This document shows, piece by piece, positions 39,186 to 60,635 of a stretch of 64,000 bases of DNA. The stretch's first letter is position 1, and each line of letters opens with the position of its first letter. This stretch comes from the human T2T-CHM13v2.0 reference genome, Homo sapiens, in NCBI RefSeq assembly GCF_009914755.1, contig NC_060935.1, one strand, 5' to 3'. The notes beneath the pieces were generated by a model that saw nothing but the letters and a program-made list of their open reading frames with translations, ran no database searches and had not been told where the DNA came from. The position numbers and the translations under genes are program-made.

Positions 39186-41412
39186 GTATATACTCATAAT
39201 CTCTAAAGGAAAAACACAAGTAGCAGGAAAAATCATATTTGTCCTCAAAATGACTATTATTGTAGTAGGTGGGCTTCATGCTCCAGAGGTTTGGGCACTA
39301 ATATTAGATGAGAATGAATTTGTTATTATTGTGCTCCTCATTCGTGCTAGACACTGCTATGGTAACTGGGGTTACAGAGGTGAGTAAGAAAGGCACACCC
39401 TCTGCATCTTGGAGATACCAGTGAGGATGGCCAAGAAACAACAAGCAAACATAGAAAGAAGCAAATTTAAGTTATAAGTGCCATCACGGAAACAAGCAAG
39501 AGATGAAAATAGAAAATGTGTGTGTTTGTGTGTGTGTGTGTGTTCGTGTGTACTGGTGAGGATGAAGAGTTTGGGAACATCCTGCTTTATTAAAAAGAAG
39601 CATGAGATTCAGAGTAAAAAAAAAAAAAGTAGACAAAAATTCAGAAAAAAAAGGGATGGCAGTGTAGTCTGGCCATTGATTTACCCGGCAGTGGAAAGTA
39701 GAAAAGAATAATATGAATGGGTCTGGAGACACTCTTTACCTTAGACACCAGCCACTTTGAGGGAGGAAGTATATGAGTAAGAACAGGATGGCAATTTTGC
39801 TAATATACTACATGTATGATAAGTTTTAGATTGCTGTTAAATGTTGTTTGGCTAGAGAAACCCAGGATTAATAGAACCATGCTTTACAAATCATCTATTT
39901 CCCACAAGGCTTCCAAGGCAATAATATACTCAAGGAACAAGGACAAATGAGAAATGAAAGTTCCACTTTAATTTTAGTTGGGGCAGTGCCTGTAACTGCC
40001 AATTAAATGTTTTGAAAAATCTGGATTCAAGTACAATATGTAAATTTGGACTCAACGTCCCGAAGAAAGGACTTCAGCCTCAAAGTCCAAGTCTTACCAC
40101 TAACAGGCTGCCAAGTTCAAAGTGATTAGGGTTTCTGACCATCAGAGTACTAATACAAGGCAACTAAGAATGCTAGAATAATGGGTTTCCTTGCAGTATG
40201 GAGAGAAGGGACCACCATATGCATATAGGTAAACTCACACTTTGTAAATGTGACTCATTCACTGGGCATTCTGAAATCTGAACAAACAGTTTAATATCTG
40301 CTCTTGGTGAAGTTTTAGGTTGAACTGAGATATTAAAAGGATTTTCACAGTCAAATAATGAGGAAATCATAATTCATGTCAGTCAGAGAGAGAAAATGAC
40401 CCCAAACTTGAAGACTGTATTCCAATATACCTAGAAAATGAGGTACTTTGTTAAAATAAGGTATAATAGGATAAGAAGCTGAAAATAGAACTTAAGGCCA
40501 TACTACTTTAAAAAAACAGGCAAAAAAACAGCCTCTTATTTTTATGCTTTGAGCAGTCATTTTAAACCCAGATAGTTACCGAATCTGGGTTTAGAAAGAT
40601 ATATTCTGGGGGCTATGTGTGAAAGAGGTGGTGCAGAGGAAAGAAACTCCTAGCAGGGATGGTAGTAAGCATGCAGTCACTACTTACCAAACACAAGATG
40701 ATCATTTTTATTCATATTACTAGAAAAGTGACTAAAAATTTTTTTCCATCATGTAAGAAAATATGGTGAATCATGACCATTATTTTCAAAATATATCACG
40801 CAATCATAGACTTTTCAGGAGCAATACCTCCTATTACAGTTCCTAGGTAGAAGACAGGGGAGAGGAGGTTTGCAAGATGGACAAAGTTGACAAGTATTTT
40901 CATGGCACATATAATTTTCTCAAATATGGAAAACATGATGTTTGTATGGAATGCTAAAATATGGATAAGTATAGATAAGAAATATTGCCCCATATTTTCC
41001 CTCATTTTAATAACCATGGTCAATATTTTAGGGCATATTCCTATGTTTTCTGTGGAATTGTTTTATAACCACTTTCTCCAAAATTGTCTTATGTTGCATT
41101 TAGTGTCCTCAGATAATATTGTTTCTAATCATGGTGGGATTACACACAAATTATATAAATTACATACAACAGACAGAAAAATTGTTTTTTTCTTGTTTTT
41201 TTGTTTTATTATACTTTAAGTTTTAGGGTACATGTGCACATTGTGCCGGTTCGTTACATACGTATACATGTGCCATGCTGGTGCGCTGCACCCACTAACT
41301 CGTCATCTAGCATTAGATATATCTCCCAATGCTATCCCTCCCCCCTCGCCCCACCCCACCACAGTCCCCAGAGTGTGATATTCCCCTTCCTGTGTCCATG
41401 TGATCTCATTGT

Positions 41413-44400
41413 TCAATTCCAACCTATGAGTGAGAATATGCGGTGTTTGGTTTTTTGTTCTTGCGATAGTTTACTGAGAATGATGATTTCCAATTTCATC
41501 CATGTCCCTACAAAGGACATGAACTCATCATTTTTTATGGCTGCATAGTATGCCATGGTGTATATGTGCCACATTTTCTTAATCCAGTCTATCATTATTG
41601 GACATTTGGGTTGGTTCCAAGTCTTTGCTATTGTGAACAATGCCGCAATAAACATACGTGTGCATGTGTCTTTATAGCAGCATGATTTATAGTCCTTTGG
41701 GTATATACCCAGTAATGGGATGGCTGGGTCAAATGGTATTTCTAGTTCTAGATCCCTGAGGAATCGCCACGCTGACTTCCACAATGGTTGAACTAGTTTA
41801 CAGTCCCACCAACAGTGTCAAAGTGTTCCTATTTCTCCACATCCTCTCCAGCGCCTGTTGTTTCCTGACTTTTTAATGATTGCCATTCTAACTGGTGTGA
41901 GATGGTATCTCATTGTGGTTTGGATTTGCATTTGTCTGATGGCCAGTGATGATGAGCATTTTTTCATGTGTTTTTTGGCTGCATAAATGTCTTCTTTTGA
42001 GAAGTGTCTGTTCATGTCCTTCGCCCACTTTTTGACAGGGTTGTTTGTTTTCTTCTTGTAAATTTGTTTGAGTTCATTGTAGATTCTGGATATTAGCCCT
42101 TTGTCAGATGAGTAGGTTGTGAAAATTTTCTCCCATGTTGTAGGTTGCCTGTTCACTCTGATGGTAGTTTCTTTTGCTGTGCAGAAGCTCTTTAGTTTAA
42201 TTAGATCCCATTTGTCAATTTTGGCTTTGGTTGCCATTGCTTTTGGTGTTTTAGACATGAAGTCCTTGCCCATGCCTATGTCCTGAATGGTAATGCCTAG
42301 GTTTTCTTCTAGGGTTTTTATGGTTTTAGGTTGAACGTTTAAGTCTTTAATCCATCTTGAATTGATTTTTGTATAAGGTGTAAGGAAGGGATCCAGTTTC
42401 AGCTTTCTACATATGGCTAGCCACTTTTCCCAGCACAATTTATTAAATAGGGAATCCTTTCCCCATTGCTCGTTTTCCTCAGTTTTATCAAAGATCAGAT
42501 AGTTGTAGATATGTGGCATTATTTCTGAGGGCTCTATTCTGTTCCATTGATCTATATCTCTGTTTTGGTACCAGTACCATGCTGTTTTGTTTACTGTAGC
42601 CTTGTAGTATAGTTTGAAGTCAGGTAGTGTGATGCCTCCAGCTTTGTTCTTTTGGCTTAGGATTGACTTGGCAATGTGGGCTCTTTTTGGGTTCCATATG
42701 AACTTTAAAGCAGTTTTTTCCAATTCTGTGAAGAAAGGCAGTGGTAGCTTGATGGGGATGGCATTGAATCTGTAAATTACCTTGGGCAGTATGGCCATTT
42801 TCACGATATTGATTCTTCCTACCCATGAGCGTGGAATGCTCTTCCATTTGTTTGTATCCTCTTCTATTTCCTTGAGCAGTGGTTTGTAGTTCTCCTTGAA
42901 GAGGTCCTTCACATCCCTTGTAAGTTGGATTCCTAGGTATTTTATTCTCTTTGAAGCAATTGTGAATGGGAGTTCACTCATGATTTGGCTCTCTGTTTGT
43001 CTGTTGTTGGTGTGTAAGAATGCTTGTGATTTTGGTACATTGATTTTTATCCTGAGACTTTGATAAAGTTGCCTATCAGCTTAAGGAGATTTTGGGCTGA
43101 GACAATGGGGTTTTCTAGATACACAATCATGTCGTCTGCAAACAGGGACAATTTGATTTCCTCTTTTCCTAATTGAATACCTTTTATTTCCTTCTCCTGC
43201 CTAATTGCCCTGGCCAGAACTTCCAACACTATGTTGAATAGGAGTGGTGAGAGAGGGCATCCCTGTCTTGTGCCAGTTTTCAAAGGGAATGCTTCCAGTT
43301 TTTGCCCATTCAGTATGATATTGGCTGTGGGTTTGTCATAGATAGCTCTTATTATTTTGAAATACGTCCCATCAATACCTAATCTATTGAGAGTTTTTAG
43401 CATGAAGGGTTGTTGAATTTTGTCAAAGGCTTTTTCTGCATCTATTGAGATTATCATGTGGTTTTTGTCTTTGGCTCTGTTTATATGCTGGATTACATTT
43501 ATTGATTCACATACATTGAACCAGCCTTGCATCCCAGGGATGAAGCCCACTTGATCATGGTGGATAAGCTTTTTGATGTGCTGCTGGATTTGTTTTGCCA
43601 GTATTTTATTGAGGATTTTTGCATCAATGTTCATCAAGGATATTGGTCTAAAATTCTCTTTTCTGGTTGTGTCTCTGCCCGGCTTTGGTATCAGAATGAT
43701 GCTGGCCTCATAAAATGAGTTAGGGAGGATTCCTTCTTTTTCTATTGATTGGAATAGTTTCAGAAGGAATGGTACCAGTTCCTCCTTGTACCTCTGGTAG
43801 AATTCGGCTGTGAATCCATCTGGTCCTGGACTCTTTTTGGTTGGTAAACTATTGATTATTGCCACAATTTCAGATCCTGAAATTCAGGTCTATTCAGAGA
43901 TTCAACTTCTTCCTGGTTTAGTCTTGGGAGGGTTTATGTGTCGAGGAATTTATCCATTTCTTCTAGATTTTCTAGTTTATTTGCGTAGAGGTGTTTGTAG
44001 TACTGTCTGATGGTAGTTTGTATTTCTGTGGGATCGGTGGTGATATCCCCTTTACCGTTTTTTATTGCGTCTATTTGATTCTTCTCTCTTTTTTTCTTTA
44101 TTAGTCTTGCTAGCGGTCTATCAATTTTGTTGATCCTTTCAAAAAACCAGCTCCTGGATTCATTACTTTTTTGAAGGGTTTTTTGTGTCTCTATTTCCTT
44201 CAGTTCTGCTCTGATTTTAGTTATTTCTTGCCTTCTGCTAGCTTTTGAATGTGTTTGCTCTTGCTTTTCTAGTTCTTTTAATTGTGATGTTAGGGAGTCA
44301 ATTTTAGATCTTTCCTGCTGTCTCTTGTGGGCATTTAGTGCTATAAATTTCCCTCTACACACTGCTTTGAATGCGTCCCAGAGATTCTGGTATGTTGTGT

Positions 44401-60300: not shown

Positions 60301-60635
60301 ATGAGTTCATGTCCTTTGTAGGGACATGGATGAAATTGGAAATCATCATTCTCAGTAAACTATCGCAAGAACAAAAAATCAAACACCGCATATTCTCACT
60401 CATAGGTGGGAACTGATCAATGAGATCACATGGACACAGGAAGGGGAATATCACACTCTGGAGACTGTGGTGGGGTGGGGCGAGGGGGGAGGGATAGCAT
60501 TGGGAGATATACCTAATGCTAGATGACGAGTTAGTGGGTGCAGCGCACCAGCATGGCACATGTATACGTATGTAACGAACCGGCACAATGTGCACATGTA
60601 CCCTAAAACTTAAAGTATAATAAAAAAAAAAGAAA
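57329..60635 (+). mobile_element. L1PA2 with intact 5' and 3' ends but a ~2.73-kb internal deletion; right arm of the inverted pair
   Basis: GGGAGGAGCCAAGATGGCCGAATAGG start. After ~185 nt the 5'UTR (GCAGGGCGAGG) joins ORF2 (AAAGATCCAAAATTGAC). ORF2 remainder, 3'UTR and A tail follow. Confidence 0.97.
57512..60416 (+). pseudogene. L1 ORF2 remnant lacking the endonuclease domain
   Basis: Stops at 57892-57894, 59256-59258 and 60009-60011; +2 frameshift near 57945. RT domain open in 57963-59258. Confidence 0.95.

What the first reader, a model, noticed from the sequence alone, without database searches (positions are those of the whole stretch)
41190..60635. Arm-to-arm homogenisation: both L1s share private and inactivating mutations
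Seen: across the ~3.1-kb shared region I count about 37 differences by manual alignment (~98.8% identity). Both copies carry the same ORF2 nonsense codon 436 (43934 / 57892), the same +2 frameshift (~43880 / ~57945), the same late nonsense (41818 / 60009), and the same unusual 3'UTR string TATACGTATGTAACGAACCGGCAC. The other young L1s in this window (~21105 and ~33915) read TATACATATGTAACTAACCTGCAC there. Established: L1 proteins act mainly in cis, so an ORF2-dead element is an unlikely parent. Inference: these mutations arose after insertion and were copied between arms by non-allelic gene conversion, so the locus behaves like a miniature palindrome built from two retrotransposons.
Basis: partly seen in the sequence, partly recalled or inferred. 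Interest (0 to 1): 0.75.

Follow-up and report, generated by a model that had tools for sequence, protein, structure and literature searches.

The report
Inverted L1 pair: inversion plus homogenisation
Two separately inserted L1 retrotransposons lying head to head 10 kb apart have recombined with each other, flipping the DNA between them and copying mutations from one to the other, which is a clear example of a known process rather than a new one.

Summary
The two arms (left 41188-44316, minus strand; right 57512-60643, plus strand) are 98.7% identical. They share an ORF2 nonsense at codon 436, a +2 insertion, a nonsense at codon 1141 and a 3'UTR 24-mer found nowhere else in T2T-CHM13.

A 96-97% identical paralogue at chr11:88.82 Mb has both insertion sites empty, one copy of each duplication, and the 10-kb spacer in the opposite orientation. 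So there were two independent insertions, then an L1-L1 crossover that inverted the spacer.

Gene conversion is supported:
- 34 arm-shared variants occur in 0 of 35 other L1 copies.
- Differences are mosaic, with an 843-nt tract free of them (P=0.0002).
- Only 2 of 28 CpG sites differ between the arms, against 9 of 14 in the 5'UTR stub outside the long homology block.

This rejects a shared dead source or a daughter copy.

The segment is already listed as one of 26 "GRCh38 misorientations" (PMC10150506). By the duplication logic, T2T and all 82 tested haplotypes carry the derived state and GRCh38 shows the ancestral one. GC bias was not shown, and the L1PA2 label was not verified. This is a new member of a known kind.

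The parts
41176..41189 (-). Copy 1 of target-site duplication A (sense AAAAACAATTTTTC), next to the poly-A end of the left L1
   Evidence: The paralogue has a single copy at the empty site.
41190..47229 (-). Left L1, full length (about 6.04 kb), now chimeric. Its 3' end belongs with duplication A and its 5' end with duplication B. ORF1 has 3 in-frame stops. ORF2 is open for 435 codons and then broken.
41188..44316 (-). Left arm: 3.13 kb of ORF2 and 3'UTR shared with the right L1
   Evidence: 98.69% identity over 3132 columns
43213..44054 (-). Left half of the 843-column difference-free tract. It holds the shared codon-436 nonsense and the shared +2 insertion, and the published inversion boundary at window 43414.
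   Evidence: (permutation P=0.0002)
47230..47243 (-). Copy 1 of target-site duplication B (sense AAAGAAAATTATCT), next to the 5' end of the left L1
47244..57313 (.). 10.07-kb non-L1 spacer, inverted relative to both flanks when compared with the paralogue at chr11:88.82 Mb
   Evidence: Flank X maps to the minus strand. Both spacer ends map to the plus strand of the paralogue. Flank Y maps to the minus strand.
57314..57327 (+). Copy 2 of target-site duplication A, next to the 5' end of the right L1 (3 extra bases follow before the L1 starts)
57331..57514 (+). 5'UTR stub of the right L1, joined to ORF2 across an internal deletion of about 2.7 kb with a 3-nt overlap. It is not homogenised with the left L1.
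57512..60643 (+). Right arm: 3.13 kb of ORF2 and 3'UTR
57774..58615 (+). Right half of the difference-free tract. It holds the published inversion boundary at window 58368.
60636..60649 (+). Copy 2 of target-site duplication B (13 of 14 bases match), after the poly-A of the right L1
60563..60586 (+). 3'UTR 24-mer with three arm-shared variants. Its partner is at 41243-41266 on the minus strand. It is unique to the two arms in the whole genome.

Best explanation
After the segmental duplication that made this GRM5P1 region, two L1 elements inserted independently. They lay about 10 kb apart in inverted orientation, with their 5' ends facing each other. Element A was internally deleted (a 5'UTR stub plus 3.1 kb). 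Element B was full length. Both decayed in place.

Their 3.1-kb block of uninterrupted homology then acted as a substrate for non-allelic homologous recombination.
- At least one crossover inverted the spacer and the inner L1 parts. This left two chimeric L1s whose target-site duplications match crosswise.
- Non-reciprocal exchange (gene conversion), in at least two episodes of different age, copied post-insertion mutations from one arm to the other. These include two nonsense codons and a +2 insertion. The arms are now 98.7% identical and mosaic.

Shown here: independent insertion, the inversion, the privacy of the shared variants, the mosaic pattern, and the lack of homogenisation outside the long homology block.
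Inferred: that conversion rather than another copying route made the shared variants, the number and dates of the events, and any link between the difference-free tract and the crossover.
For: 1. Swapped duplications. The left 5' flank matches the right 3' flank (AAAGAAAATTAT...). The left 3' flank matches the right 5' flank (AAAAACAATTTTTC).

2. Paralogue at chr11:88.82 Mb, 96-97% identical.
- Flank X 39400-41185 maps to 88827160-88828938 on the minus strand.
- Spacer end 55900-57309 maps to 88825745-88827151 on the plus strand, 8 nt away.
- Spacer end 47251-48700 maps to 88817121-88818562 on the plus strand.
- Fetched junctions L067 and L068 show one copy of each duplication, no L1, and flank Y next to the other spacer end.

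3. The arms are each other's closest relatives: 98.7% identity, against 96.8-97.0% for the 29 best unlinked copies and 92-96% for 6 older ones. In the tree the two arms form a clade with 100/100 support, stem 0.017 and tips 0.006 (35 rows, with 2 short comparators left out).

4. 71 variants are shared by both arms against the commonest state of the young comparators, and 34 of them occur in 0 of 35 comparators. Three clusters covering 10 of the 34 plus 4 rarer shared states are unique genome-wide as exact words.

5. Mosaic pattern. The longest difference-free run is 843 columns, P=0.0002 in 200,000 permutations. Differences are heterogeneous over 300-nt bins (chi-square P=0.015), with 10 differences in columns 2700-3000.

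6. CpG sites.
- In the arms 2 of 28 differ between copies, and 9 decayed identically.
- In the 5'UTR stub 9 of 14 differ, and 2 decayed identically (Fisher P=0.0002).
- The per-copy decay fraction is similar: 11 of 28 in the left arm, against 7 and 6 of 14 in the stub.

7. The stub has 1 shared-private variant against 12 differences. The arms have 34 against 37 (Fisher P=0.006).
Against: - No orthologous ape sequence could be examined, so the order and dates of insertion, inversion and conversion are not observed.
- Only 14 of the 71 shared variants (10 of the 34 that no comparator carries) were tested against the whole genome. The rest were tested against 35 comparators, of which 29 were chosen by similarity and 6 by carrying the codon-436 stop.
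- The GC bias expected of gene conversion was not significant once equal rarity thresholds were used (P=0.11-0.22).
- The stub is CpG-rich and short (about 180 nt). At non-CpG sites alone its excess divergence is not significant: 4 differences, counted by hand.
- A single long conversion plus chance could give part of the mosaic. The chi-square P is only 0.015, and the 843-nt run is the main support for more than one event.
Confidence: 0.85

Rival explanations
1. Common dead source or daughter copy. Both L1s, or the right one as a daughter of the left, were retrotransposed in trans from one already-mutated element, so the shared variants were inherited and not exchanged.
For: - Both elements have poly-A tails and their own target-site duplications.
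- The arms form one clade with a long stem.
- The codon-436 nonsense also occurs in 8 unlinked copies.
Against: - No source exists in T2T. The frameshift word is unique with up to 2 mismatches. The 3'UTR word is unique. The third cluster is unique as an exact word.
- The 6 fetched stop-sharing copies share 4-23 of the 15-69 shared-variant columns they cover, and the states they share are not among the 34 that no comparator carries.
- The nearest 27-mer match (L069) shares 2 of the 15 private variants in its 1-kb overlap, and those are the 2 it was selected for.
- The 5'UTR stub should share the source's mutations, yet it has 1 shared-private variant against 7 private to the left copy. The arms have 34 against 19 (Fisher P=0.008). 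9 of its 14 CpG sites differ.
- The differences are mosaic and not uniform.
- Two rare offspring would have to land 10 kb apart.
- Retrotransposition in trans of an element with a broken ORF2 is inefficient (recalled knowledge, not checked here).
Confidence: 0.05
2. One single exchange. A single long conversion, or an inverted re-copying of 3.1 kb, was followed only by independent decay. On this reading the locus does not behave as a recurrently exchanging palindrome.
For: Over columns 1106-2700 the differences (21) and the shared-private variants (18) are fairly even. These are hand counts from the column lists. A single event about two-thirds of the way through the elements' life would fit them.
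Against: - There is an 843-column run without any difference, P=0.0002.
- Columns 2700-3000 carry 10 differences and 2 shared-private variants, the ratio seen in the unconverted stub.
- An independent crossover (the inversion) shows that the arms recombined at least once more.
Confidence: 0.08
3. Assembly or polishing artefact. The T2T-CHM13 arms were made artificially alike, or the spacer orientation is wrong.
For: GRCh38 and T2T disagree in orientation over exactly this segment.
Against: - Strand-seq reads from 41 people (82 haplotypes) support the T2T orientation: 977 Crick and 14 Watson reads on CHM13, against 21 and 965 on GRCh38 (PMC10150506, Table S4 rows 97-98).
- The arms still differ at 37 sites spread over both sides of the identical tract, which does not fit a collapse.
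- The swapped duplications and the paralogue fit a real crossover.
Confidence: 0.02

Closest known systems
Retrotransposon recombination-mediated inversion (RRMI), Lee et al. 2008, PLoS One, PMC2603318 (passages and supplementary table 1 read)
   Same: Two inverted L1s of a young L1PA type sit at the breakpoints. The elements are chimeric, with duplications that do not match within an element but match crosswise. The paper uses the duplications to tell the ancestral state.
   Different: This locus is not in their table. Its only chr11 loci are at hg18 123.76 Mb and 91.57 Mb. 'Gene conversion' occurs 0 times in that paper. Here the pre-inversion state comes from a paralogue, not from an orthologue. 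Their screen used hg18. If hg18 carried the GRCh38 orientation here (not checked), it would have hidden a difference from chimpanzee; this is an inference.
Balanced human inversions flanked by inverted L1 pairs (preprint 10.1101/2021.12.20.472354, one passage read; preprint 10.1101/2024.04.18.590093, passages read)
   Same: The first preprint reports 22 L1-flanked balanced inversions with median pair identity 97.2% and median size 5.6 kb. The second reports 8 L1 pairs among 45 repeat-flanked inversions.
   Different: Those inversions are polymorphic. This one is uniform in 82 haplotypes. Arm identity here (98.7%) is above their median. Homogenisation of the L1 arms is not discussed in the first preprint, where 'gene conversion' occurs 0 times.
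Entry chr11:49714144-49729098 in the list of 26 'GRCh38 misorientations', Porubsky et al. 2023, Genome Biol, PMC10150506 (passages and Table S4 rows read)
   Same: It is the same segment. T2T chr11:49891414-49906368 is window 43414-58368, and both ends lie inside the L1 arms.
   Different: The paper treats it as a probable reference error and gives no mechanism or polarity in the passages read. Here the duplications and the paralogue show that the GRCh38 orientation equals the ancestral arrangement and the T2T orientation is derived.
Sex-chromosome palindromes with arm-to-arm gene conversion (PMC3723533 and PMC8981503; search listing and start of abstract only)
   Same: Inverted arms are kept alike by intrachromosomal gene conversion, with occasional spacer inversions.
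   Different: In those palindromes arm identity is above 99% or 99.9% and conversion is GC-biased, according to the abstracts. Here the arms are 3.1 kb and 98.7% identical, were built from two separate retrotransposon insertions, and show no demonstrated GC bias. That the sex-chromosome arms are large duplicates is recalled, not read.
Gene conversion between neighbouring Alu elements (PMC8230782, passages read)
   Same: Post-insertion sequence exchange occurs between nearby copies of one retrotransposon family. The review cites a range of about 10 kb, falling with distance.
   Different: Those are Alus, about 300 nt long, with mostly short tracts detected through subfamily-diagnostic positions. 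Here 3.1-kb L1 arms share inactivating lesions.

Membership tests
Retrotransposon recombination-mediated inversion (RRMI) | Two retrotransposons of one family in inverted orientation at the two breakpoints | tested here: met
   Left L1 is on the minus strand and right L1 on the plus strand, with 3.13 kb of homology.
Retrotransposon recombination-mediated inversion (RRMI) | Chimeric elements whose target-site duplications fail to match within an element but match crosswise | tested here: met
   14 of 14 bases match for duplication A (41176-41189 and 57314-57327). 13 of 14 match for duplication B (47230-43 and 60636-49).
Retrotransposon recombination-mediated inversion (RRMI) | A pre-inversion arrangement seen at a homologous locus | tested here: met
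   The paralogue at chr11:88.82 Mb has empty sites and the opposite spacer orientation. It is a paralogue, not an orthologue. GRCh38 also has the opposite orientation.
Concerted evolution of inverted repeats by non-allelic gene conversion | Independent origin of the two copies | tested here: met
   Two different duplications, and two empty sites in the paralogue.
Concerted evolution of inverted repeats by non-allelic gene conversion | Copies closer to each other than to other family members, with shared derived variants absent elsewhere | tested here: met
   98.7% identity against at most 97.0%. 34 variants occur in 0 of 35 comparators. Three words are unique in the genome. The arms form a clade with 100/100 support.
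Concerted evolution of inverted repeats by non-allelic gene conversion | Mosaic of tracts with different divergence | tested here: met
   An 843-column run without differences, P=0.0002. Bin heterogeneity P=0.015.
Concerted evolution of inverted repeats by non-allelic gene conversion | Homogenisation confined to the homology block | tested here: met
   CpG sites differing between copies: 9 of 14 in the stub against 2 of 28 in the arms, P=0.0002.
Concerted evolution of inverted repeats by non-allelic gene conversion | Paralogous arms cluster by species rather than by locus across apes | not testable with these tools
   No ape genome is held. Only the window's own genome could be searched.
Concerted evolution of inverted repeats by non-allelic gene conversion | GC-biased spectrum of transferred variants | tested here: inconclusive
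   Among shared variants, AT-to-GC changes outnumber GC-to-AT changes 21 to 6, against 13 to 10 for arm-specific variants at the same threshold (P=0.14). P ranges from 0.11 to 0.22 over the thresholds tried.
   No repeat library is held. The arms carry states shared with older copies at 14 or more positions (hand count) and attach below all 29 youngest copies in the tree. An older L1PA type is possible.
Sex-chromosome-type palindrome | Arm identity above 99% maintained by frequent conversion | tested here: not met
   98.7% identity and 37 differences. The locus works like such a palindrome but is not one.

The most novel reading that the evidence does not exclude
The orientation carried by T2T-CHM13 and all 82 tested haplotypes is a nearly fixed or fixed inversion of the human lineage, made by an L1-L1 crossover inside the 843-nt identical tract. 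The 95% upper bound on pairwise divergence in that tract is 0.36%, so the last exchange there is recent. On this reading the opposite orientation in GRCh38 is not an assembly error but a surviving, or reverted, ancestral haplotype. Because the older references showed the ancestral state, human-chimpanzee screens based on them could not have seen this inversion.
Probability: 0.15. Interest if true: 0.55.

Novelty: new member of a known kind. Interest (0 to 1): 0.4.

Why it matters
The locus is a compact, fully resolved example of ordinary dispersed repeats turning into a small recombining inverted-repeat system. Two dead L1s that inserted separately now evolve together and have flipped 10 kb of DNA.

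Three practical consequences follow:
- The divergence of an L1 copy from its family, and the lesions two copies share, cannot be read as age or as common descent when a partner copy lies nearby.
- One of the 26 catalogued 'GRCh38 misorientations' gets a mechanism and a polarity. The reference shows the ancestral arrangement and people tested so far carry the derived one.
- A segmental-duplication paralogue can serve as an outgroup for the empty sites and the orientation when no orthologue is at hand.

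Tried and rejected
1. GC-biased conversion. A first count gave 21 AT-to-GC and 6 GC-to-AT changes among shared variants, against 15 and 15 among arm-specific ones (P=0.053). That count used unequal rarity thresholds. With equal thresholds P=0.11-0.22. GC bias is not shown.

2. 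Excess mutation in the arms (the idea that recombination is mutagenic).
- The left L1 has 58 variants seen in 0 of 28 comparators in its arm (1.87%), against 12 in the 1484 nt just 5' of the arm (0.81%). Binomial P=0.007; P=7e-5 against the comparators' own singletons.
- The farther 5' part (47229-45560) has 25 in 1670 nt (1.5%) against 26 other comparators.
- CpG decay is 4 of 16 upstream against 11 of 28 in the arm.
- The excess is therefore not robust.
- Shared-private variants are clustered (9 close gaps, P=0.002), but close pairs also occur in the non-arm part. The clustering is not specific to the arms.

3. Element A much older than B, with conversion from A into B. The private counts in the stub are 5 (A) and 7 (B), and subfamily-type states are equally frequent upstream and in the arm. 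This is not supported.

4. A minor L1 subfamily carrying the 'private' states. The third cluster's 27-mer has 50 other matches at up to 2 mismatches, which share sub-combinations of its variants. The closest of them (L069) shares none of the other private variants. These are parallel changes.

5. Search of the genome with the whole spacer. It was swamped by interspersed repeats, and even the self-match was not scored. It was replaced by short unique queries. The DNA search also failed to score the left arm when queried with the right arm, so its hit lists are not complete.

Only 6 of the 8 stop-sharing copies and 3 short pieces were obtained.

Full report
**What is there**

The repeat finder reports two abutting inverted-repeat blocks (41186-43047 with 58782-60643, and 43044-44316 with 57512-58784). 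It also reports a third, weaker pair (47045-47249 with 57310-57514, 90%). blastn joins the first two blocks into one alignment of 3132 columns at 98.69% identity, with 38 mismatches and 3 gap openings.

The left element is a full-length L1 on the minus strand, 41190-47229. The right element, on the plus strand at about 57328-60635, has two parts. The first is the initial 184 nt or so of the 5'UTR (57331-57514). It is joined, with a 3-nt overlap, straight to ORF2 sequence, and the element then runs to the poly-A. So the right element has an internal deletion of about 2.7 kb. The homology between the two L1s is therefore split into a short stub and a long 3.13-kb block.

All items are present.
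- A MAFFT alignment gives 37 differing columns, leaving off the last 3 poly-A columns.
- The frame came from a natural genomic copy with an open 1275-codon ORF2 (L005). Both arms have a nonsense at codon 436, a 2-nt insertion after ORF2 nt 1354, and a nonsense at codon 1141.
- Each arm also has a lesion of its own: a 1-nt deletion in codon 731 on the left, and a nonsense at codon 890 on the right.
- The unusual 3'UTR 24-mer is in both arms. The two other L1 3' ends in the window carry the common version, which differs at 3 bases.
- In the left L1, ORF2 is open from its start to codon 435, and the ORF1 frame has three in-frame stops.

**Are the shared variants private?**

The window's own genome (T2T-CHM13) could be searched.

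| Word | Result |
|---|---|
| 3'UTR 24-mer, exact | 2 places, both arms |
| 3'UTR 24-mer, up to 1 mismatch | 5 places (2 arms and 3 others) |
| 27-mer over the +2 insertion, up to 2 mismatches | 2 places, both arms |
| 27-mer over a third cluster, exact | 2 places, both arms |
| Same third-cluster 27-mer, up to 2 mismatches | 50 further places sharing sub-combinations |
| 26-mer over the codon-436 nonsense, exact | 10 places (2 arms and 8 unlinked copies) |

The closest match to the third cluster (L069) shares 2 of the 15 private variants in its 1-kb overlap, and those are the 2 it was selected for.

The codon-436 nonsense is therefore not private. I could fetch 6 of the 8 unlinked copies. They are 92-96% identical to the arm and share only states that other copies also carry, so that stop arose in parallel.

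I compared the arms with 35 natural copies: the 29 best unlinked matches (96.8-97.0%) and the 6 older copies.
- The arms share 71 states that differ from the commonest state of the young comparators, and 34 of them are in none of the 35.
- Of the 37 differences between the arms, the left carries the rarer state at 19 and the right at 17.
- In a maximum-likelihood tree of 35 rows (two short comparators left out) the arms form a clade with 100/100 support. The stem is 0.017 and the tips about 0.006. The clade attaches below all 29 youngest copies.

The L1PA2 label could not be tested, because no repeat library is held. An older L1PA type is possible.

Read in each element's sense orientation, the left L1's 3' flank and the right L1's 5' flank share AAAAACAATTTTTC (14 of 14 bases). 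The left L1's 5' flank and the right L1's 3' flank share AAAGAAAATTAT(C/A)T (13 of 14). Within each element the flanks do not match.

Lee et al. 2008 use this signature for retrotransposon recombination-mediated inversions (PMC2603318, passages read).

**Independent confirmation from a paralogue**

The window lies in GRM5P1. It has a 96-97% identical paralogue at chr11:88.82 Mb. That this place is the GRM5 locus is my inference from the gene name and is not checked.

| Window piece | Position in the paralogue | Strand |
|---|---|---|
| Flank X, 39400-41185 | 88827160-88828938 | minus |
| Spacer end next to the right L1, 55900-57309 | 88825745-88827151 (8 nt from flank X) | plus |
| Other spacer end, 47251-48700 | 88817121-88818562 | plus |

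Two 301-nt pieces fetched from the paralogue show one copy of each duplication and no L1. In them flank X is joined to the spacer end that now lies beside the right L1. Flank Y is joined to the spacer end that now lies beside the left L1.

Three conclusions follow.
- Both L1s inserted after the segmental duplication.
- They were two separate insertions.
- In the window the spacer and the inner L1 parts are inverted relative to the arrangement in which each L1 had matching duplications.

Original element A was the internally deleted one, with its 3' end anchored at 41190. Original element B was the full-length one, with its 3' end anchored at 60635.

**Gene conversion against inheritance from a common source**

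A crossover swaps sequence but does not make the arms alike. The shared private variants therefore need either non-reciprocal exchange or common descent. Four results point to exchange.

1. No source element exists in the genome, as the unique words above show.

2. The 5'UTR stub is a built-in control.
- It belongs to the same two elements but is cut off from the long homology block by the deletion.
- The two copies differ at 12 of 178 stub columns. Each is closer to unrelated copies (median 95.5% and 93.8%) than, or only as close as, it is to its partner (93.3%).
- The stub has 1 shared-private variant against 12 differences, while the arms have 34 against 37 (Fisher P=0.006).

3. CpG sites give the sharpest contrast. 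The per-copy decay fraction is about the same in the stub and the arm, but the decays are independent in the stub and shared in the arms.

| Region | CpG sites | Differ between copies | Decayed identically | Decayed per copy |
|---|---|---|---|---|
| Stub | 14 | 9 | 2 | 7 and 6 |
| Arms | 28 | 2 | 9 | 11 (left arm) |

Fisher's test on the sites that differ gives P=0.0002.

4. The differences are mosaic.
- There is a run of 843 columns without any difference (permutation P=0.0002).
- Differences are heterogeneous over 300-nt bins (P=0.015).
- Columns 2700-3000 carry 10 differences and only 2 shared-private variants.

One uniform copying event does not give this pattern. At least one recent exchange is needed (the 843-nt tract, with a 95% upper bound of 0.36% pairwise divergence). 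An older and wider exchange is also needed.

**Link to published work**

- Table S4 of Porubsky et al. 2023 (PMC10150506; passages and rows read) lists GRCh38 chr11:49714144-49729098, which is T2T chr11:49891414-49906368, as one of 26 'GRCh38 misorientations'. Strand-seq gave 977 Crick and 14 Watson reads on CHM13, and 21 and 965 on GRCh38.
- The text says that all 82 haplotypes support the T2T configuration. It also says that an error is more likely than a very rare polymorphism.
- In window coordinates this segment is 43414-58368. Both ends lie inside the L1 arms and inside the 843-nt identical tract.
- The paper gives no mechanism or polarity in the passages I read. By the duplication logic and the paralogue, the T2T orientation is derived and the GRCh38 orientation equals the ancestral one.
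- Whether GRCh38 holds a real rare haplotype or a flip made during assembly cannot be told here. Either would restore matching duplications.
- The locus is not among the chr11 entries of Lee et al.'s table.
- L1-flanked balanced inversions are a known class: 22 pairs with median identity 97.2% (preprint 10.1101/2021.12.20.472354, one passage), and 8 pairs (preprint 10.1101/2024.04.18.590093).
- A phrase search for L1 gene conversion in the open library found only a reference-list entry, Burton et al. 1991, of which I saw the title only. Exchange between neighbouring Alus is reviewed in PMC8230782. Supplements of the bioRxiv preprints were closed and may list this locus.

**What did not hold up**

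- GC bias of the transferred variants is not significant with equal thresholds.
- An apparent 2.3-fold excess of private variants in the left arm over the adjoining non-arm part shrinks when the rest of the non-arm part is counted.
- Clustering of variants is not confined to the arms.

**Verdict**

The locus is a clear, datable instance of two known processes acting together, an L1-L1 inversion and arm-to-arm gene conversion. It is not a new kind of system.

Noticed in passing
window 39400-41185, 47251-48700 and 55900-57309; loci L067 and L068: The window region is a segmental duplicate, 96-97% identical, of chr11:88.817-88.829 Mb in the same genome. The paralogue lacks both L1s. It can serve as an outgroup for other insertions and rearrangements in this window.
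   Followed up: partly
window 52137-52411 and 54712-54984: There is a second, weaker inverted-repeat pair inside the spacer: two blocks at 77-80% complementarity, about 2.3-2.6 kb apart (I4 and I5). They matched many genomic sites and lie at stretches masked as repeats, so they are probably two inverted Alu-type elements.
   Followed up: no
window 52710-53301: A stretch of about 590 nt in the spacer matches at least 38 places across the genome at 75-79% identity. It is an old interspersed repeat that NCBI's file does not mask.
   Followed up: no
G000 chr3:36325781, chr6:117921938, chr7:86204410, chr9:98311597, chr9:100059533, chr10:4864208, chr12:86748298, chrX:56239444: Eight unlinked L1 copies carry the same ORF2 codon-436 nonsense in the same 26-mer context. 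The 6 that were fetched are unrelated to the arms, so this site has mutated the same way repeatedly.
   Followed up: partly
window 45874, 45994, 46177: The ORF1 frame of the left L1 has three in-frame stop codons. The element is therefore broken outside the shared arm as well.
   Followed up: partly
window 57328-57330: Three bases (AGA) lie between target-site duplication A and the first L1 base of the right element. They are absent from the empty site in the paralogue, so they are extra bases at the 5' junction.
   Followed up: no
The genome search DNA mode: The first-look filter did not score the left arm when queried with the right arm, and it did not score the self-match of the 10-kb spacer. 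Hit lists for repeat-rich queries are incomplete, and absence from them means little.
   Followed up: yes
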